A stretch of 64,000 bases of DNA from an uncultured Spirochaetota bacterium (lineage in GTDB: Bacteria; Spirochaetota; Brevinematia; Brevinematales; JAOACQ01), in NCBI GenBank assembly GCA_963768055.1, contig CAVYGN010000001.1, forward strand, positions 53,590-117,589, written 5' to 3'. Below, piece by piece: positions 24,214-29,862 of this stretch. The notes below the pieces were generated by a model that saw nothing but the letters and a program-made list of their open reading frames with translations, ran no database searches and was not told the DNA's origin. How positions within the stretch are numbered: the first letter of the stretch is position 1; each line of letters starts with the position of its first letter. The position numbers and the translations under genes are program-made.

Positions 24214-24531
24214 TCAGCAGCATCCGCCGGATTCCGGCTCTTTACAGGACTGCGGCCCCCCGCACCCGCATTCGGGAGATTTATTCCCGAAAATGCCGCT
24301 GATTACCGCGGCGGCACATCCGACACCGGAATTGACTTCGATTGCACCGGCCGGGCAATTTATCCGGCAGGCCCCGCATTCCATGCATGCGTCTCTTATA
24401 ACTATCAATGCTTTTTTATCAAGCAGCTTGAAAACATTATGCGGGCAAACTTCTATACAATTGCCGCATCCGGTGCATTTATCGATGTCCAATGCCAGGC
24501 TCCCGCCGTTTTTAATATATTTCCAGATCAC
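24214..24531 (-). CDS. hgcB: mercury methylation ferredoxin HgcB
   Basis: Two CX2CX2CX3C motifs including CMECGAC; C-terminal CC; directly after hgcA. Confidence 0.95.
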   Translation of the reverse strand: MIWKYIKNGGSLALDIDKCTGCGNCIEVCPHNVFKLLDKKALIVIRDACMECGACRINCPAGAIEVNSGVGCAAAVISGIFGNKSPECGCGGPQSCKEPESGGCC

Positions 24532-24533
24532 TG

Positions 24534-25562
24534 TTACCCTCCGATATTCAGAATTTTTAAAATATTTAATACGATCCCTCCCGCAAAGGCCGCGGCCATA
24601 ACGGGCAGCGATCTTTTAACCTCGAGAGTCGCGCCGGTTTGATTTGTAAATGTCGTCGATCCCGTAAAATTCATGGCTATAAACGATATTACGGGAATCG
24701 TTATAAGGGCCAGTAATAGCGACCCGTAAATTGAAAGCCTGCATATCCATGCCGCCGGTAAGCAATATATAATACCGAGAACGCCGCCCTTTAAAGAAAA
24801 GGCCCTGAAAGGCAGGTATGGGAGCAGCAGGGGAAATACAAAAACTCCTGAAAGAACGGAAAAAATGTAAGCGGTAAGAAGCGGCGTAAGTCTTTGTATA
24901 TAAGTTTTGTCTAAAGGCAGGCTGAAAACAGAGCCGAGAATAATGAGAACAGAAACAAGCCACATGCTTTGAACCAGTTCCACCGGAGCCACTATAAGCC
25001 TGTCCTTCCAGTTGAAGCTTACCTCGCTCATGCGGGCGTCTTTTTTCATCCCTTTTGCCATGAATCGTTTTATATCGCCTGCACGGACAGGGCCGTATGT
25101 AATTTCAAATTTTGTCATCATGCGGGCCTTATAAGAAGACACTCCTACAGCGCCAAGCTGCGGCAGGATGATTTTCCTGTGCCTTACGATCCTTTCGAGC
25201 CCCGATTCTAATATTCTTTTTACAAGCTCCATTGTTCCGAAAGTACCCTTTCCGGCTGCGCACCAGACGTTGATGCCCCTGGTATCGAGAACGATCAGCC
25301 AGGCGTCCAAGCCTTCAAGGTTTTTTCTAACAATGTCGAAAGAAAGTTTATAGTTGGCCGTGACAAATACAGGTGAGTCCTGATCCGGTTTCCCGATCCC
25401 GTAAAGCCCCGGAGAAACCCTGTAATTTCCTCTCCCGATATCGAGCCTGACCATAAGGCCGCCAATCCAGTCTGTAAAGGTGAGCTTAGTCGATATTAAA
25501 GGAATTTGCCGGTTGGAAATGCCGGCATAACCACTTATATAAGGTTCCCTTTTATCCATCAT
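24534..25562 (-). CDS. hgcA: mercury methylation corrinoid protein HgcA
   Basis: Cap-helix NVWCAAGKG, VTANYKLSFD, C-terminal TM domain ending FTGSTTFT; start may be the second Met (25559). Confidence 0.97.
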   Translation of the reverse strand: MMDKREPYISGYAGISNRQIPLISTKLTFTDWIGGLMVRLDIGRGNYRVSPGLYGIGKPDQDSPVFVTANYKLSFDIVRKNLEGLDAWLIVLDTRGINVWCAAGKGTFGTMELVKRILESGLERIVRHRKIILPQLGAVGVSSYKARMMTKFEITYGPVRAGDIKRFMAKGMKKDARMSEVSFNWKDRLIVAPVELVQSMWLVSVLIILGSVFSLPLDKTYIQRLTPLLTAYIFSVLSGVFVFPLLLPYLPFRAFSLKGGVLGIIYCLPAAWICRLSIYGSLLLALITIPVISFIAMNFTGSTTFTNQTGATLEVKRSLPVMAAAFAGGIVLNILKILNIGG

Positions 25563-26007
25563 GGACCTCGCTTGTTGTTTTTTTTCTCAGGGCGTCGGCG
25601 AAAAGTTTGAAGGATTCAACCACGCCGGCATGTTTATAATCGGGTATGTATTTAAAAATATCCAGGTATATTTTGTTCCATAACGAATTTATCTCACAGG
25701 TAATTCTATAGCCGGTTTCCGTCAGTTTAAGGTTAGTATATCTCCTGTCTTTAGGATTTTCAGACCTTTCAATAAAACCCGATTTGAACAATTCGTCGGC
25801 TGTCCTGCTCAAAGTGCTTTTATCAAGGTCGAGGGCTAGGGAAAGCTGTTTTATTGTAAGTTCTCCCTGCGATTCTATCTCCATTAGCATGTGACATTGA
25901 GGCACGGTGATCCCGCAGCAGCAATCGCCGTTTGCAAACTGCCTTTCTATCGCCCTTTCTATTACCCTGATCGATTTTCTGAAAATTCCTAACTTTAATT
26001 CGTCCAT
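25552..26007 (-). CDS. MarR family regulator with DCCC motif
   Basis: ITVPQCHML, LDLDKSTLSR, ENPKDRR; overlaps the hgcA start. Confidence 0.9.
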   Translation of the reverse strand: MDELKLGIFRKSIRVIERAIERQFANGDCCCGITVPQCHMLMEIESQGELTIKQLSLALDLDKSTLSRTADELFKSGFIERSENPKDRRYTNLKLTETGYRITCEINSLWNKIYLDIFKYIPDYKHAGVVESFKLFADALRKKTTSEVHDG

Positions 26008-26041
26008 ATTTTATCCGGTTTATTGAGTGTGTATAACAACT

Positions 26042-26070
26042 ATTGTAACACACAACTACGATAATGTCAA
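26042..26070 (-). promoter_or_regulatory. sigma70 promoter of marR-hgcAB
   Basis: TTGACA-17 bp-TACAAT; -35 overlaps the GH1 stop; imperfect IR (GTGTGT..ACAA-N3-TTGT..ACACAC) overlaps the -10. Confidence 0.7.
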
Positions 26071-27410
26071 TAGCCGTTGTTATCAATAACCGATTTAAGC
26101 CACAAGCCGCTTTTCTTGACTGTCCTCTTTTGCGTTTTAAAATCCACATGAACAAGCCCGAATCTCTGTGAATACCCGGCGTTCCATTCAAAGTTATCCA
26201 TGAAGGACCATACAAAATAACCGGCCAGGTTTACTCCGGCTTGTATCGCCCGGTGGGCCTGGAATATATGTTCCCGGATATAATTAATCCTGTTATCGTC
26301 ATTAACTTTCCCCTGCGGGTTTAAAACATCCTTAAAGGCCGCTCCGTTCTCGGTTATCATCATTTTTATGCCATTGTATTCCCTGTGAAGATAAAGCAAT
26401 AGATCGTAAAGGCCTGCGGGATATATTTCCAATCCCGAGCCGGTCGTTTCCTTTCCTGTTTTTGTAAAGGAAGTTTGAAGATAGGGTTTACCGGGATCAT
26501 GCCTTGCCGAATTGCTTGTATAATAATTTACACCTAAAAAATCAATCGGGGTATTTATTATATCCATGTCGTCTTTTTTTATTTCAGGAAAATCTGCTGT
26601 CTCAGAAAACCAATTGACCAGCTCGGGCGGATATTGCCCTTTCATTACAGGGTCGAGGAACCAGCCGTTATAAAAATCGTTGTAACGCCTCGCTGCGGCA
26701 ATGTCCCTCTCATCCATTGACGCGGGGTAGACCGGATTCAGGTTAAGCTTTATCCCGATTTCGCCCTTCATTCCCATTTCACGGAAAGCGCGGACGGCCC
26801 TGCCATGCGAGAGCAGGATATTATGAGAAACGGATAGCGCTATTGAAAGATCCTTGATCCCAGGCGGATGCCCGCCGTACAAGTTGCCCGCAAAGGCGCT
26901 CACCCAGGGCTCGTTGAATGTCGCCCAGATTGGGACCATATCTCCAAGTTCCCTGAATACATAGCGGGAGTATTCTTCGAAATAATTAATAGTTTCCCCG
27001 GCGGCCCAGCCTCCGATATCCTGGAGTTTCTGGGGCAGGTCCCAGTGATACAGGGTAGCCGCAGGTTTAATTCCGTTTTCAAGAAGCAGACCGGCAAGTC
27101 TCCTGTAAAAATCGATTCCCTTTTTATTAGGTTTTCCTTTGCCTTCCGGAAATATCCTCGGCCAGGAAACGGAAAAAAAGTAAGATTTGAATCCGAGGTC
27201 TTTAAGAAGTTTTACATCCTTCTCATAAAGATGATAATGGTCGCAGGCGACATCGCCGTTATCGTTGTTGAATATCTTTCCAGGCCGCAGGTGAGTGAAG
27301 CGGTCCCAGATCGATTCCCCCTTCCCGTCTTCCAGGTAAGCGCCCTCGATCTGATATGAGGCGCTCGACGCGCCCCAGATGAAGCCATGCGGAAAAACTA
27401 ACCCCGGCAT
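26067..27410 (-). CDS. GH1 beta-glucosidase
   Basis: WGASSASYQIEG, TFNEP (acid/base), ITENG (nucleophile), WSFMDNFEW. Confidence 0.95.
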   Translation of the reverse strand: MPGLVFPHGFIWGASSASYQIEGAYLEDGKGESIWDRFTHLRPGKIFNNDNGDVACDHYHLYEKDVKLLKDLGFKSYFFSVSWPRIFPEGKGKPNKKGIDFYRRLAGLLLENGIKPAATLYHWDLPQKLQDIGGWAAGETINYFEEYSRYVFRELGDMVPIWATFNEPWVSAFAGNLYGGHPPGIKDLSIALSVSHNILLSHGRAVRAFREMGMKGEIGIKLNLNPVYPASMDERDIAAARRYNDFYNGWFLDPVMKGQYPPELVNWFSETADFPEIKKDDMDIINTPIDFLGVNYYTSNSARHDPGKPYLQTSFTKTGKETTGSGLEIYPAGLYDLLLYLHREYNGIKMMITENGAAFKDVLNPQGKVNDDNRINYIREHIFQAHRAIQAGVNLAGYFVWSFMDNFEWNAGYSQRFGLVHVDFKTQKRTVKKSGLWLKSVIDNNGY

Positions 27411-27532
27411 TTTTCACCCGGGCAGCCGCACGGTGCGGGCGGCCTGCAATCCGTGTTTTCCGGGCCGCAGCATTCGCAATCGATGCCTTTTTGCTTTGAA
27501 ACGCCTTCCATTTCCTTTTTGAACTCAAACAT
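27398..27532 (-). CDS. 44-aa Cys-rich mini-protein (not in ORF track)
   Basis: AGGAGG, 7 nt, ATG; MFEFKKEMEGVSKQKGIDCECCGPENTDCRPPAPCGCPGEKCRG*; 7 Cys; stop overlaps the GH1 start; lies directly behind an ECF-type promoter copy. Confidence 0.7.
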   Translation of the reverse strand: MFEFKKEMEGVSKQKGIDCECCGPENTDCRPPAPCGCPGEKCRG

Positions 27533-27562
27533 AATTGAGCCTCCTGAATTATTTTTCATAAT

Positions 27563-27598
27563 ATATGACGTAAGTTTCCCTGAAAGGACGCAAAATCC
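27563..27598 (-). promoter_or_regulatory. ECF sigma-type promoter, copy 1
   Basis: Minus strand TGCGTC-16 bp-CGTC; 34/36 identical to copy 2. Confidence 0.75.
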
Positions 27599-27637
27599 AT
27601 GATAATTTGCAGTGCCATTGTAAAAAAACCTTGCATT

Positions 27638-28996
27638 TTATTCTCCTCTTACAATATTTAGCAAGCAGGACGGCCGGACAGTATAGGACCTGATAAGATC
27701 GGCGAGTTCCTCCCATCCGGTGCAGTTTTCCAGTAAAAAAGACCTTGGATAATCTTTGATCTCCTCCCAGGGAATAGACTGCAATACAGGTTTGAAAAAC
27801 TGGCGGATTTGAAGCTCATCAAGAAAAGAAAAAATCCTGAATTTCAACTGTTCTTTTACTTTGTAATCAATTGCTGAAGAAAACCTGTCCTCCAGCATTT
27901 TGAATATTTCCACTGCTATAGCGGAATTACCGAGGCCCCGTCTTTGATCCCTGATTTTATCGGCCATTGACGCCCATTTTGTGCCGTTCTTCGGATAAAC
28001 CAATCCCATTGCCCCGATATCTTTATAAGCCCAATAAGTCCATGAAATGCGGTATTTTTCAAAAAGATCGAGACAGTCTTTTACTAATTTCAGACCTTCC
28101 ATCAGCCTGCCTTTGGGAAAAAACCCTCCGGTCTCTCCAACCCACAGAGGCATGCCTGTTTTTTCTCTAAGGCCGATGAAATACGATAGTTTTTGTTCCA
28201 GTTCCGCTTTTCTTTTTTCAGGTTCTGCGGATAATAAAACATGCATACCGGGGTAAAAATGGAACGAAATAGCCTGCTGGCGCCCGCCTAAATTTTTAAA
28301 TAAATTAAAGTCCTTGGCCCAGTCGTCTCCTTCAAGGAATATTATGTGATTATTATCGATTTCTCGTATCTTACGGATCACCCTGTCATAAAAGACGTTG
28401 AAGGTATCGATATCAGGAACGAATGCGGGTTCATTGAGTATATCGAAACCGGCAATGATCGGATCATCCTTATACCTCTCCGCTATATATCCCCAGAGGT
28501 TGACGATTCTCTCTCTCGATGAGGCGTCTTCCCAGAACGTGCTGACCCCTGTATCACCCCCGCCATGCGAATCGGGGTTTTGGCCGCCGGGTGAAGAATG
28601 CATATCAAGGATAGCGAAAATATCATATTTACGGCAAAGCTCAAGCACCCGGTCTATATGTTTAAATCCTTCAGGTTTATACTCCCCCGGCGCCTGATCA
28701 TCTTCAAAACGCCTGTAATCGAGAGCCAGCCTTAAGGCGTTTATGCCCAGACTTTTTAATAATATAAAATCTTCTTCGGTAATGAAGAATCGCAGGTAAT
28801 CATCAAAAAATTGGGCGGAATTTTCGCTGCCGTAAACCCCGGCAAAAGTCTGTCGGATTCTCTTATTGGAGCCCGGTATTCCGATCATGAAATTTTCGAT
28901 ATTCATCCATGATCCTAACACAAACCCCCTTAAAATTATAGATGTGTTATGAAGGGTAAATTCCCCGTTTTTAGCTTGGATAAAACTTGTGTCCAT
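27638..28996 (-). CDS. GH5 glycoside hydrolase (cellulase family)
   Basis: ILDMHSSPGGQN, FDILNEP, FHFY, WVGETG; start placed at MDTSF because the longer ORF runs through the promoter. Confidence 0.9.
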   Translation of the reverse strand: MDTSFIQAKNGEFTLHNTSIILRGFVLGSWMNIENFMIGIPGSNKRIRQTFAGVYGSENSAQFFDDYLRFFITEEDFILLKSLGINALRLALDYRRFEDDQAPGEYKPEGFKHIDRVLELCRKYDIFAILDMHSSPGGQNPDSHGGGDTGVSTFWEDASSRERIVNLWGYIAERYKDDPIIAGFDILNEPAFVPDIDTFNVFYDRVIRKIREIDNNHIIFLEGDDWAKDFNLFKNLGGRQQAISFHFYPGMHVLLSAEPEKRKAELEQKLSYFIGLREKTGMPLWVGETGGFFPKGRLMEGLKLVKDCLDLFEKYRISWTYWAYKDIGAMGLVYPKNGTKWASMADKIRDQRRGLGNSAIAVEIFKMLEDRFSSAIDYKVKEQLKFRIFSFLDELQIRQFFKPVLQSIPWEEIKDYPRSFLLENCTGWEELADLIRSYTVRPSCLLNIVRGE

Positions 28997-29028
28997 GCTT
29001 TTTATTCCGTTAAAATATTTTCCACAAG

Positions 29029-29064
29029 ATATGACGTAAGTTTCCCTGAAAGGATGTAAAATCC
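29029..29064 (-). promoter_or_regulatory. ECF sigma-type promoter, copy 2
   Basis: ATATGACGTAAGTTTCCCTGAAAGGATGTAAAATCC on + strand; minus strand TACATC-16 bp-CGTC. Confidence 0.75.
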
Positions 29065-29075
29065 GGGATGTGTTT

Positions 29076-29630
29076 TTAAGAAATGTTACAGCAGCAGCAT
29101 GTGACGGGCCGGATGTCGATGATTGTACCAAAGCGGTCGAATTCGAAATGGCAGCAATTCATGAGGCTGTCCCTGACTAATTTGCGGCCCCTCTGGACGC
29201 GCGACTTGGCACATGATGATGAAATACCAAGTTTTTCCGCTACTTCAACGATTGATAAACCCTGAAATTCGAATAAGAGAAGAGCCTGCGCGTACTTTTC
29301 CGGCAGGGTTTCGATCATATTTCTCAGGCCCGAAGCGATTTCATCCTCCGGGCTTTCCTCTTCTCTTTCATAGCCGATTTCGATATCATCTATATCCTTG
29401 ATCCCTGTCCTGCGTTTCCTGTAATAGTCTATTATCGTATTCCGCGCTATCCGGTAGATCCATCCTACCAGCTTCGACTGTTCCTCGAGTTTATCGATAT
29501 TAAGGTGGATCTTTAAAAAAACATCCTGAAGGATATCGTCGATATCGGAGCGGTTGGATATCCTATGGTATATAAAAGCCCTTATCCTTTCTCCGAAATC
29601 TTCCCAGATTTGATTGAAATCATGCGGCAT
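29076..29630 (-). CDS. sigZ: ECF RNA polymerase sigma factor, SigZ-like, with Cys-rich C-terminus
   Basis: DDILQDVFLKIH, WIYRIARNTIIDYYRK, AKSRVQRGRK; tail CCHFEFDRFG..TCCCC. Confidence 0.85.
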   Translation of the reverse strand: MPHDFNQIWEDFGERIRAFIYHRISNRSDIDDILQDVFLKIHLNIDKLEEQSKLVGWIYRIARNTIIDYYRKRRTGIKDIDDIEIGYEREEESPEDEIASGLRNMIETLPEKYAQALLLFEFQGLSIVEVAEKLGISSSCAKSRVQRGRKLVRDSLMNCCHFEFDRFGTIIDIRPVTCCCCNIS

Positions 29631-29678
29631 AATTACCCAAAACCTCCGTCATCTTCAAAAAAAATATTTTTTTACAAG

Positions 29679-29714
29679 ATATGACGTGAATATTTTTGAA
29701 AGGATGCAAAGTCC
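29679..29714 (-). promoter_or_regulatory. ECF sigma-type promoter, copy 3 (autoregulatory position)
   Basis: Minus strand TGCATC-16 bp-CGTC; 28/36 identical to copy 2 with -35 and -10 conserved. Confidence 0.75.
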
Positions 29715-29862
29715 GGGATTTTTTTTGCATTACATTATAAGTTCCAATAAATTATACTCTTCTTAAAGGAAAAAATTCAACATCTTTCTTTATTTTTTAA
29801 GCCGGCCTCTTTAACCTTATGTTAAAATATTCTTTCAGCTGTGAGAATTTGTTTAGTTTCTT

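What the first reader, a model, noticed from the sequence alone, without database searches (positions are those of the whole stretch)
27398..27532. Unannotated 44-aa metallothionein-like mini-protein
Seen: perfect AGGAGG; first ORF after ECF promoter copy 1; 7 Cys (CECC, C, CGC, C) in the C-terminal 26 residues; stop overlaps the GH1 start. It is missing from the ORF track because of the length cut-off. Inference: a metal-binding peptide (Hg/Zn/Cu buffer or sigma partner), or alternatively the remnant of a gene displaced by the GH1.
Basis: partly seen in the sequence, partly recalled or inferred. Interest (0 to 1): 0.62.

Follow-up and report, generated by a model that had tools for sequence, protein, structure and literature searches.

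The report
Conserved cysteine-rich mini-protein in SigZ module
The 44-codon frame is a real gene: the shortest member of an undescribed family of cysteine-rich mini-proteins that travels with two sugar-cleaving enzymes, a cysteine-studded efflux permease and metal-type regulators, and sits beside mercury-methylation or arsenic genes in at least two separate bacterial lineages.

Summary
Observation confirmed. On the minus strand, 27398-27532 encodes MFEFKKEMEGVSKQKGIDCECCGPENTDCRPPAPCGCPGEKCRG. It has AGGAGG 7 nt upstream and 7 Cys, and its stop overlaps the GH1 start by 13 nt.

It is neither chance nor a remnant. I found at least 35 homologous protein clusters (44-107 aa, all "hypothetical", no Pfam/NCBIfam/PDB relative). 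They share MF[EK]FKKxMxG...C-x-CCG...C-x-C followed by a variable CGCG/CC-rich tail. The N-terminal block is under strong purifying selection (pN 0.18, pS 0.90).

The gene always lies in one module: [SigZ-type ECF sigma or ArsR] - [ArsP_1 permease with a Cys-rich loop] - GH5-like - mini - [GH1] - [Cys-MarR]. A TGCGTC-N16-CGTC promoter directly precedes the mini gene in four loci from two phyla. In this genome it has exactly three copies, all in this locus.

The module sits beside hgcAB in two independent lineages and beside arsR-acr3-arsC in a third. It is rare: 2 of 401 Spirochaetota genomes and 4 of 399 in the Bacillota MAG's class. It probably moved by horizontal transfer.

Best reading (about 0.55): a thiolate-rich binder, buffer or chaperone for soft metals or metalloids. 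It is metallothionein-like in composition only. Metal binding and expression remain untested, and why two glycosidases belong to the module is unexplained.

The parts
27398..27532 (-). Mini-protein CDS, 44 aa plus stop. Conserved core: M1 F2 F4 K5 K6, G10, C19-x-C21-C22-G23, C35-x-C37.
   Evidence: family alignment; purifying selection.
27540..27545 (-). Shine-Dalgarno AGGAGG, 7 nt before the ATG. The same arrangement occurs in all homologous loci.
27563..27592 (-). SigZ-type promoter copy 1: TGCGTC (27592-27587), 16-nt spacer, CGTC (27570-27567). It lies inside the 57-nt repeat 27547-27603.
26067..27410 (-). GH1 beta-glucosidase (BglA type; NEP and TENG motifs present). Its start overlaps the mini-protein stop by 13 nt.
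27638..28996 (-). GH5-like glycosidase (452 aa, no signal peptide seen). It is the most constant upstream neighbour of the family.
   Evidence: contexts.
29029..29057 (-). SigZ-type promoter copy 2, upstream of the GH5-like gene.
29076..29630 (-). SigZ-type ECF sigma factor (ECF238 group) with the C-terminal tail CCHFEFDRFGTIIDIRPVTCCCC.
29679..29707 (-). SigZ-type promoter copy 3, upstream of sigZ (autoregulation inferred).
25552..26007 (-). Cys-containing MarR regulator. It belongs to the extended module (36% identical to the MarR at the same place in L032, with a conserved CC..C.H patch). It has its own TTGACA-17-TACAAT promoter at 26070-26042.
24214..25562 (-). hgcA (24534-25562) and hgcB (24214-24531), the mercury-methylation pair downstream of the module.
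   Evidence: HgcA 387 bits against cut-off 275; HgcB 113 against 99.

Best explanation
The ORF is a real, translated gene. It is the shortest member (44 aa) of an uncharacterised family of cytoplasmic, cysteine-rich mini-proteins.

Family anatomy (shown):
- A conserved N-terminal block, MF[EK]FKKxMxG.
- A conserved five-cysteine core, C-x-C-C-G ... C-x-C.
- In longer members, a variable low-complexity tail of CGCG/CC repeats.

Proposed function (inferred): it binds a thiophilic metal or metalloid through its thiolates. Candidates are Zn/Cd/Cu(I), As(III) and Hg(II). It would act as a cytoplasmic buffer or chaperone for a stress module made of a Cys-loop ArsP_1-type efflux permease, two cytoplasmic beta-glycosidases (GH5-like and GH1) and the mini-protein.

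Proposed control (partly shown):
- Shown: the module is controlled either by a SigZ/ECF238 sigma whose Cys-rich tail is the presumed sensor, acting at TGCGTC-N16-CGTC promoters, or by ArsR/SmtB repressors.
- Shown: in this genome the sigma's promoters drive sigZ, the GH5-like gene and the mini-GH1 unit.
- Inferred: read-through could continue into marR-hgcAB.

Status of the steps:
- Shown: gene reality, family, synteny, promoter motif, selection.
- Inferred: metal binding, which metal, hand-over to the permease or HgcAB, and induction by metal.
For: (1) Homologues with the same start and RBS:
- A same-genus spirochaete MAG and a Brevinematales-type contig.
- Bacillota-like contigs and a Bacillota MAG.
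- 35 clusters in the profile search.

(2) Selection and conservation:
- The N-terminal block has pN 0.18 against pS 0.90.
- Invariant residues are M1 F2 F4 K5 K6 C19 C21 C22 G23. C35 and C37 are at least 90% conserved.

(3) Composition is metallothionein-like: 9-16% Cys, S+C+G about 40%, no His or Trp, and CxC/CC/CGCG motifs.

(4) The module's ArsP_1 permeases:
- They carry TPLCACG plus a central loop of CGC/CxC repeats, the same kind of motif as the mini-protein tail.
- Their nearest NCBIfam models are a Cu/Zn efflux family and SaoE, both below cut-off.

(5) The regulators are of metal-sensing kinds:
- The sigma reaches the SigZ equivalog scores. All orthologues share CCHFE[FL]DR[FY]G...CCCC.
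- ECF238 includes CorE/CorE2, which are activated by Cu or by Cd/Zn through a Cys-rich C-terminus and have no anti-sigma (PMC7826278, PMC8999054).
- ArsR/SmtB metalloregulators precede the module in L038, L040 and L032.

(6) Dedicated promoter:
- TGCGTC-N16-CGTC lies 41-75 nt before the mini gene in L032, L034 and L039, and a copy directly precedes it in the window. It also precedes ArsP, GH9 and GH5.
- It appears only on the coding strand and only in intergenic DNA.
- There are exactly three perfect copies in the 3.69-Mb genome.

(7) Neighbourhood:
- True hgcAB in the window, L031 and, independently, L040, where gshA and an ATP-grasp gene lie between.
- arsR-acr3-arsC in L032.
- A DGC gene in L040. 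The ND132 preprint places ArsP and DGC in an arsenic-induced operon and links hgcAB to ArsR control.
Against: - No experiment and no expression data.
- No homology to any metallothionein, ArsD, MerP or other metal-binding family.
- AlphaFold2 gives a disordered model, pLDDT 50. This is uninformative.
- The most constant neighbours are glycosidases (GH5-like, GH1, sometimes GH9). They look like ordinary beta-glucoside or cellodextrin enzymes, and a metal role does not explain them.
- This sigma lacks the CxC linker motif of CorE-like sigmas (seen in the translation). Metal sensing by SigZ-type members is itself unproven (PMC8999054).
- ArsP_1 is a broad permease family, and the module's members score below every curated cut-off.
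- The G003 homologue has only 5 Cys, and L036 shows no metal gene within 8 kb.
- The resemblance between the mini tail and the permease loop is at motif level only. BLASTP is not significant.
Confidence: 0.55

Rival explanations
1. Small zinc-knuckle-like partner of the glycosidases. The conserved C-x-CC...C-x-C core folds around one structural metal, and the N-terminal block docks onto the GH5-like enzyme or GH1. It would act as an accessory or regulatory subunit, for example a redox or thiol switch on enzyme activity, rather than as a metal buffer.
For: - The GH5-like gene is the immediate upstream neighbour in 10 of 13 loci, and GH1 the downstream neighbour in 10 of 13.
- The stop and start overlap in both spirochaete genomes that carry GH1.
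- The strictly conserved N-terminal block looks like a docking motif.
- There is a weak resemblance to the eL43 zinc ribbon (E 0.27).
Against: - The long, hypervariable Cys-repeat tails of most members are not what a structural knuckle needs.
- L028 and L030 have the permease, not GH5, directly upstream. L031, L037 and L039 have no GH1 after the mini gene.
- The PDB similarity is not significant.
- BglA-type GH1 and GH5 enzymes are not known to need such subunits (my knowledge).
Confidence: 0.15
2. Regulatory accessory of the sigma factor. This would be an anti-sigma-like protein or co-sensor that bridges a metal to the sigma's CC...CCCC tail, in place of the anti-sigma factor that ECF238 lacks.
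For: - The sigma and the mini gene co-occur in 8 loci, and the mini gene has its own sigma-type promoter, a feedback layout typical of sigma/anti-sigma pairs.
- Both proteins are Cys-rich.
- ECF238 has no known anti-sigma.
Against: - The family is also present in ArsR-controlled loci with no sigma within 8 kb (L038, L040), in L036, and in G003.
- It has no His and no HxxxCxxC motif of zinc-binding anti-sigma factors.
- It is never adjacent to the sigma gene.
Confidence: 0.08
3. Exported cysteine-rich peptide. The layout is a conserved leader followed by a hypervariable core, as in a ribosomally made metallophore-like or other modified peptide. The adjacent ArsP_1-type permease would export it.
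For: - The conserved N-terminal 23 residues followed by a hypervariable Cys-rich region resemble a leader and core.
- A permease is present in 8 of 13 loci.
Against: - No radical-SAM, YcaO, lanthipeptide or other maturase, and no peptidase, in any of the loci examined.
- No match to SCIFF or other precursor models in NCBIfam.
- There is no signal peptide, and this window has no permease in the module.
Confidence: 0.08
4. Leader peptide or upstream ORF whose translation merely sets the expression of GH1 by translational coupling. The peptide itself would have no function.
For: - A 13-nt overlap in the window and an 8-nt overlap in G003 with the GH1 start.
- GH1's own GGTGA ribosome site lies inside the mini ORF.
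Against: - The peptide sequence is under strong purifying selection.
- Lengths range from 44 to 107 aa.
- The gap to the next gene ranges from -13 to about +260 nt.
- The next gene is not GH1 in L031, L037 and L039.
Confidence: 0.04
5. Chance ORF or decaying remnant of a longer gene cut short when GH1 arrived.
For: - It is the shortest member.
- Its last six codons run over GH1's start region.
- The nearest relatives are 55-59 aa.
Against: - All family-invariant residues, the RBS and the promoter are retained.
- GH1 is the usual neighbour of the family elsewhere, so it is unlikely to be a recent arrival.
Confidence: 0.03

Closest known systems
Bacterial metallothioneins (SmtA/BmtA, Pfam PF02069; MymT of mycobacteria)
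   Same: Small cytoplasmic proteins rich in Cys, with CxC/CC motifs and few bulky residues. They are expressed under metal-sensing regulators (SmtB for SmtA; my knowledge).
   Different: - No sequence similarity.
- No His, whereas SmtA uses His and a zinc-finger-like fold.
- Lower Cys fraction (9-16%).
- A strictly conserved, non-Cys N-terminal block.
- A genomic home among glycosidases.
- Metal binding not shown.
Metallochaperone plus transporter pairs that share a binding motif (CopZ with the CopA N-terminal domains; ArsD with ArsA)
   Same: A small soluble Cys protein is encoded next to an efflux transporter that carries the same kind of Cys motif. Here the CGC/CxC repeats of the mini tail match the type found in the ArsP_1 central loop.
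   Different: - No homology to CopZ, ArsD or HMA domains.
- The resemblance is at motif level only.
- The transporter is a secondary permease, not an ATPase.
- This window's module has no permease.
CorE / CorE2 regulons of Myxococcus xanthus (ECF238, formerly ECF44)
   Same: An ECF sigma without an anti-sigma, carrying a Cys-rich C-terminal extension, that drives a small local regulon including an efflux system (PMC7826278, PMC8999054).
   Different: - This sigma is the SigZ (formerly ECF24) type and lacks the CxC linker motif.
- Its signal is unknown.
- Its regulon contains glycosidases and a mini-protein, which I did not find reported for CorE or CorE2.
ArsR-ArsP-ArsE-DGC organoarsenical operon, and ArsR control of hgcAB, in Pseudodesulfovibrio mercurii ND132
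   Same: ArsR/SmtB regulator, ArsP-type permease, DGC protein and hgcAB all occur in one functional neighbourhood (preprint 10.1101/2022.10.17.512643; compare L040).
   Different: ND132 has no GH5/GH1 pair and no mini-protein in those operons as described. Here hgcAB follows a Cys-MarR, not an ArsR.

Membership tests
New 'MFxFKK / CxCCG' cysteine-rich mini-protein family (defined here) | N-terminal MF[EK]FKKxMxG block beginning at the start codon | tested here: met
   MFEFKKEMEG in the window protein. M1 F2 F4 K5 K6 are invariant in 34 sequences.
New 'MFxFKK / CxCCG' cysteine-rich mini-protein family (defined here) | C-x-C-C-G followed 10-14 residues later by C-x-C | tested here: met
   C19-E-C21-C22-G23 and C35-G-C37. 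The first motif is invariant and the second at least 90% conserved.
New 'MFxFKK / CxCCG' cysteine-rich mini-protein family (defined here) | Position directly after a GH5-like gene (or the ArsP_1 permease) and usually before GH1 | tested here: met
   Window order is GH5-like, mini, GH1. The same order is seen in L032, L034, L035, L036, L038 and L040.
New 'MFxFKK / CxCCG' cysteine-rich mini-protein family (defined here) | Long CGCG/CC-repeat tail | tested here: not met
   The window protein ends 7 residues after the core. Tails of 20-70 residues occur in most members. I do not treat the tail as obligatory, since L031 and G003 are also short.
Metallothionein (general definition) | Low mass, high Cys content, CxC/CC motifs, few aromatic residues, no His | tested here: met
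   44 aa, 16% Cys, CECC and CGC motifs, only two Phe (both N-terminal), no His or Trp. The Cys fraction is at the low end for metallothioneins.
Metallothionein (general definition) | Binds d10 metal ions in metal-thiolate clusters | not testable with these tools
   Needs the purified peptide, metal titration and mass spectrometry.
Known metallothionein sequence families (Pfam, including PF02069 SmtA type) | Match to a family profile | tested here: not met
   No Pfam family at E up to 0.1-1 for the 44-, 55- and 107-aa members. No NCBIfam match for any of 34 members.
Zinc-binding anti-sigma factors (zf-HC2) | HxxxCxxC motif and an anti-sigma domain next to the sigma gene | tested here: not met
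   The family has no His at all, no Pfam hit, and is never adjacent to the sigma gene.
SCIFF / ranthipeptide-type Cys-rich precursor peptides | Match to the precursor model and an adjacent radical-SAM maturase | tested here: not met
   No NCBIfam hit. No radical-SAM gene in any of the neighbourhoods listed.
SigZ / ECF238 sigma factors (for the controlling sigma at 29076-29630) | Match to the SigZ equivalog models above cut-off | tested here: met
   NF007215 scores 213.1 bits against cut-off 212. TIGR02959 scores 202.6 against 168.65.
SigZ / ECF238 sigma factors (for the controlling sigma at 29076-29630) | Short Cys-rich C-terminal extension, no anti-sigma gene nearby | tested here: met
   The tail is CCHFEFDRFGTIIDIRPVTCCCC. 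No anti-sigma-like gene lies in the locus.
CorE-like sigma factors in the strict sense (formerly ECF44) | [quoted passage not shown] | tested here: not met
   The linker (about residues 75-100) contains no Cys (translation). PMC8999054 says the motif is confined to former ECF44.

The most novel reading that the evidence does not exclude
The mini-protein belongs to a horizontally mobile pathway not yet described. The pathway comprises a metal-sensing SigZ-type sigma or ArsR, a Cys-loop ArsP_1 permease, GH5-like and GH1 glycosidases, the Cys-rich mini-protein and a Cys-MarR.

In this reading the pathway processes a glycoside-linked or thiol-sugar-linked form of a soft metal or metalloid, for example an arsenic- or mercury-bearing glycoside or thioglycoside:
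- The glycosidases release the metal(loid) species.
- The mini-protein captures it on thiolates.
- It hands it either to the efflux permease or to a methylating enzyme encoded after the MarR. That enzyme is HgcAB here and in L031, and a SAM methyltransferase in L032.

This would make the mini-protein a substrate-delivery factor for mercury methylation.
Probability: 0.12. Interest if true: 0.85.

Novelty: new variant of a known kind. Interest (0 to 1): 0.6.

Why it matters
- How Hg(II) reaches HgcAB inside the cell, and how hgcAB expression is controlled, are open questions. Here a Cys-rich mini-protein and a Cys-tailed sigma regulon lie immediately upstream of hgcAB. The same module recurs next to hgcAB in an unrelated lineage and next to arsenic-resistance genes in a third. 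That yields a concrete candidate thiol ligand or chaperone, and a regulatory input, that can be tested.
- It gives SigZ-type ECF sigmas, whose function is unknown even in Bacillus subtilis, a defined promoter motif (TGCGTC-N16-CGTC) and a conserved target set.
- It adds a family of at least 35 protein clusters with no name in Pfam or NCBIfam to the short list of candidate bacterial metallothionein-like proteins.
- The unexplained partnership with two glycosidases is the part most likely to hold something new.

Tried and rejected
- Single-sequence searches with the 44-aa protein found only itself: the word-indexed search of 5.8 billion proteins and the full HMMER scan of 1.84 billion representatives. 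A 44-aa query is too short for those database sizes. Homologues appeared only through whole-genome search of relatives, pattern-based locus scans and profile searches.
- The weak hits L003-L008 are spurious, with stops or unrelated frames.
- Other GH1 paralogues in the family's genomes (at most 49% identity) are not the syntenic gene. I did not inspect their upstream regions.
- Pfam, NCBIfam and PDB gave nothing. The eL43 zinc-ribbon similarity (E 0.27) is not significant.
- AlphaFold2 with the 34-sequence alignment gave pLDDT 50 and no secondary structure. I therefore ran no fold search.
- The hypothesis that the mini tail is a duplicated piece of the permease loop is not supported by BLASTP.
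- The terminator scan between GH1 and marR is at noise level, so read-through into marR-hgcAB is neither shown nor excluded.
- The supplementary text of the ECF classification paper is not held, so I could not check the neighbourhood it lists for ECF238.
- Searches of earlier scan notes by sequence and by words found nothing on this family.
Full report
**1. The observation**

The feature lies on the minus strand. The reverse complement of 27398-27532 reads ATG...TAG and translates to MFEFKKEMEGVSKQKGIDCECCGPENTDCRPPAPCGCPGEKCRG.
- AGGAGG sits at 27545-27540, seven bases before the ATG.
- There are seven Cys, all in the last 26 residues.
- The GH1 gene (26067-27410, Pfam Glyco_hydro_1, E 1.5e-176) starts at an ATG inside the ORF's AAA-TGC codons, a 13-nt overlap.
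- The ORF is the first reading frame after copy 1 of a 57-nt direct repeat (27547-27603). The other copies are at 29013-29069 and 29663-29719.
- Among 224 ATG-initiated frames of at least 40 aa in all six frames of the window, it is the second most Cys-rich. Only a fragment of HgcB is richer.

A longer 53-aa reading from the ATG at 27559 is unlikely. That ATG lies in the -10/+1 part of the promoter repeat, and every homologue begins at MF[EK]FKK.

**2. Is it a gene?**

Single-sequence searches found only the protein itself. They do show that the exact sequence is already in the public predicted-protein collection. Homologues appeared once genomes and profiles were used.
- A same-genus MAG (G003, an uncultured Spirochaetota bin) has a 55-aa homologue. 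It has the same AGGAGG, the same start, and a stop overlapping its GH1 orthologue, which is 67% identical.
- A Brevinematales-type metagenome contig (L031) has a 59-aa homologue.
- A Bacillota MAG (L028) and several metagenome contigs have 60-107-aa homologues.
- A profile of seven sequences retrieved 35 protein clusters. All are 'hypothetical', and none has a precomputed Pfam domain.

In a 34-sequence alignment, M1 F2 F4 K5 K6 C19 C21 C22 G23 are invariant. G10, E18, C35 and C37 are at least 90% conserved.

Across 13 loci, the 20 best-aligned codons differ at 90% of synonymous sites but at only 18% of non-synonymous sites. Selection therefore acts on the peptide, not on the DNA.

**3. What the family looks like**

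The lengths are 44-107 aa.
- First comes a conserved, charged N-terminal block with two Phe.
- Then comes a five-Cys core, C-x-CC-G, followed 10-14 residues later by C-x-C.
- In most members a hypervariable, low-complexity tail of CGCG(S/P), CCG and CSC repeats follows.

Family composition is S 14%, C 14% and G 12.5%, with no His, no Trp and almost no Arg, Leu or Ile. No hydrophobic stretch suggestive of a signal peptide or membrane segment is visible in the sequences. No Pfam, NCBIfam or PDB relative was found. AlphaFold2 predicts disorder, pLDDT 50.

The window's protein is the minimal form: N-block plus core and little else. Its last six codons (GEKCRG) run over the GGTGAAAA-ATG start region of GH1, which is conserved in the Bacillota-type loci L028 and L032. 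The tail seems to have been lost and the frame now ends inside GH1. The seventh Cys is probably incidental.

**4. Context: one module in two phyla**

In thirteen loci the gene lies in the same arrangement:

[regulator] - [ArsP_1 permease] - (GH9) - GH5-like - mini - [GH1] - [MarR]

| Feature | Count or loci |
|---|---|
| GH5-like gene directly upstream | 10 of 13 |
| GH1 directly downstream | 10 of 13 |
| ArsP_1 permease present | 8 of 13 |
| SigZ-type ECF sigma as regulator | window, L031, L032, L034, L035, L037, L039 |
| ArsR/SmtB metalloregulator as regulator | L038, L040; also at the head of L032 |

- The sigma factors are 57% identical between the spirochaete and L032. All end in CCHFE[FL]DR[FY]G...CCCC.
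- The MarR after GH1 is also shared: 36% identity with a conserved CC..C.H patch.
- The module's permeases carry TPLCACG plus a central loop with four to six CGC/CxC repeats. Their best, sub-threshold NCBIfam matches are a Cu/Zn efflux family and SaoE.
- The family is rare and patchy: 2 of 401 Spirochaetota genomes (one genus of 152) and 4 of 399 genomes of the Bacillota MAG's class. Together with the cross-phylum similarity, this points to horizontal transfer of the whole block.

**5. Regulation**

- A strict pattern built from the three copies has exactly three perfect matches in the 3.69-Mb genome, all in this locus. Two-mismatch matches are at control level.
- In the other sigma-bearing loci, the motif T[GA][CA][GA]TC-N16-CGTC occurs only on the coding strand and only in intergenic DNA, 24-75 nt upstream of ArsP, GH9, GH5 or the mini gene.
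- It directly precedes the mini gene in the window, L032, L034 and L039. It is absent from the ArsR-type modules.

The mini gene is therefore a direct target of this sigma in two phyla. The sigma reaches the SigZ equivalog scores and so falls in ECF238. That group includes CorE and CorE2 of Myxococcus xanthus, which lack anti-sigma factors and are switched by Cu or by Cd/Zn through a Cys-rich C-terminal domain (PMC7826278, PMC8999054).

Two cautions apply. This sigma lacks the CxC linker motif of the strict CorE type. The review also warns that ECF238 is heterogeneous. Metal sensing here is an inference.

**6. Link to mercury and arsenic**

- In the window the module is followed by marR-hgcA-hgcB (HgcA 387 bits, HgcB 113 bits, both above cut-off).
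- L031 has the same arrangement without GH1.
- L040 is independent. Its mini-protein is about 53% identical and its module is ArsR-controlled. True hgcA and hgcB (328 and 122 bits) lie 4 kb upstream, separated by gshA, an ATP-grasp ligase and a hexapeptide transferase. An ArsR and a DGC gene lie downstream.
- L032 begins with arsR-acr3-arsC (ACR3 437 bits). After the MarR it carries a C_GCAxxG_C_C protein and a SAM methyltransferase, where the window has hgcAB.
- A preprint on P. mercurii ND132 shows ArsR-type control of hgcAB, arsenic induction of an ArsR-ArsP-ArsE-DGC operon, and co-location of hgcAB with ars genes in some methylators (10.1101/2022.10.17.512643).
- G003 and L036 show no such genes nearby, so the link is recurrent but not universal.

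**7. Explanation**

The reading that fits most of this is a soluble thiolate-rich binder of a soft metal or metalloid, induced by metal-type regulators. It would act as a buffer or chaperone beside a permease that carries the same kind of Cys repeats. In this organism it may also serve HgcAB.

- Shown: gene reality, family, selection, synteny, the promoter and the neighbourhood.
- Inferred: binding itself, the identity of the metal, any hand-over, and induction.

The main weakness is that the tightest partners are two apparently ordinary, catalytically intact beta-glycosidases.
- GH1 is BglA-like (E 1e-166). Its NEP and TENG motifs were seen by eye.
- The GH5-like enzyme is closest to a putative beta-xylosidase and to CelC.
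- A metal role does not explain either enzyme.

I therefore keep four rivals: a glycosidase partner, a sigma accessory, an exported peptide and a leader peptide. The leader-peptide and remnant ideas are largely excluded by selection, variable length and variable downstream genes. The sigma-partner idea is weakened by sigma-less loci.

**8. Comparison and novelty**

It works most like a bacterial metallothionein, or like a CopZ/ArsD-style chaperone paired with its transporter. It is a member of none of those families: profile tests were negative, and it has no His, no HMA fold signal and no ArsD match. I found no description of the family in the profile libraries or in the papers searched. I rate it a new variant of a known kind, namely Cys-rich metal-handling mini-proteins. 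Function is untested, and the association with glycosidases is unexplained.

**9. Limits**

- No structure-based inference.
- The hgcAB and ars association rests on 13 loci.
- The taxonomic origin of most metagenome contigs is unknown.

Noticed in passing
window 27563-27592, 29029-29057, 29679-29707 (minus strand); L031, L032, L034-L037, L039: The TGCGTC-N16-CGTC promoter motif defines a tiny, self-contained SigZ-type regulon. There are three perfect copies in the whole 3.69-Mb genome. The same motif lies upstream of ArsP_1, GH9, GH5 and the mini gene in Bacillota-like loci. This gives SigZ-type sigmas a candidate promoter consensus and target set.
   Followed up: yes
L040 1-5310: A second, independent lineage has true hgcA-hgcB followed by gshA, an ATP-grasp ligase and a hexapeptide transferase (thiol synthesis?). 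After these come ArsR-ArsP_1-GH5-mini-GH1-ArsR-x-x-DGC.
   Followed up: partly
L032 7882-9451 compared with window 24214-26007: After the module's Cys-MarR, L032 carries a C_GCAxxG_C_C protein and a SAM methyltransferase (weak ArsM-like hits) where the window carries hgcAB. In both cases a methylating enzyme follows the MarR.
   Followed up: partly
L032 3350-4513; L035 5190-6308; L037, L038, L039, L040 permeases: The module's ArsP_1 permeases have a TPLCACG motif and a 60-90-residue central loop with four to six CGC/CxC repeats. The closest NCBIfam models, below cut-off, are the SO_0444 Cu/Zn efflux family and SaoE.
   Followed up: partly
L002 1345-1482 (G003): In the same-genus genome only a 45-aa C-terminal fragment of the GH5-like gene remains upstream of mini-GH1. 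There is no sigma, promoter repeat or hgcAB nearby, and the mini-protein there has lost two core-flanking Cys. The module appears to be decaying in that genome.
   Followed up: partly
L031 5440-5826: In the relative's locus a 128-aa predicted membrane protein is inserted between hgcA and hgcB, which are adjacent in the window. An LMWPc (ArsC-like) gene lies just downstream on the opposite strand.
   Followed up: no
window 26008-26070 (minus strand); L031 3995-4088: marR has a near-consensus TTGACA-17-TACAAT promoter with a TG extension. The surrounding sequence (TTATTGACATTAT...GTTGTGT...TACAAT...) is conserved between the window and L031, which suggests a MarR operator. No convincing terminator separates GH1 from marR.
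   Followed up: partly
L032 7731-7895: A 54-aa ORF with no family match lies between GH1 and marR in L032, overlapping the marR start.
   Followed up: no
window 24214-24531 (HgcB): The HgcB C-terminal tail (ECGCGGPQSCKEPESGGCC) has the same CGCG/CC style as the mini-protein family and the permease loops. This is a resemblance in composition only.
   Followed up: no
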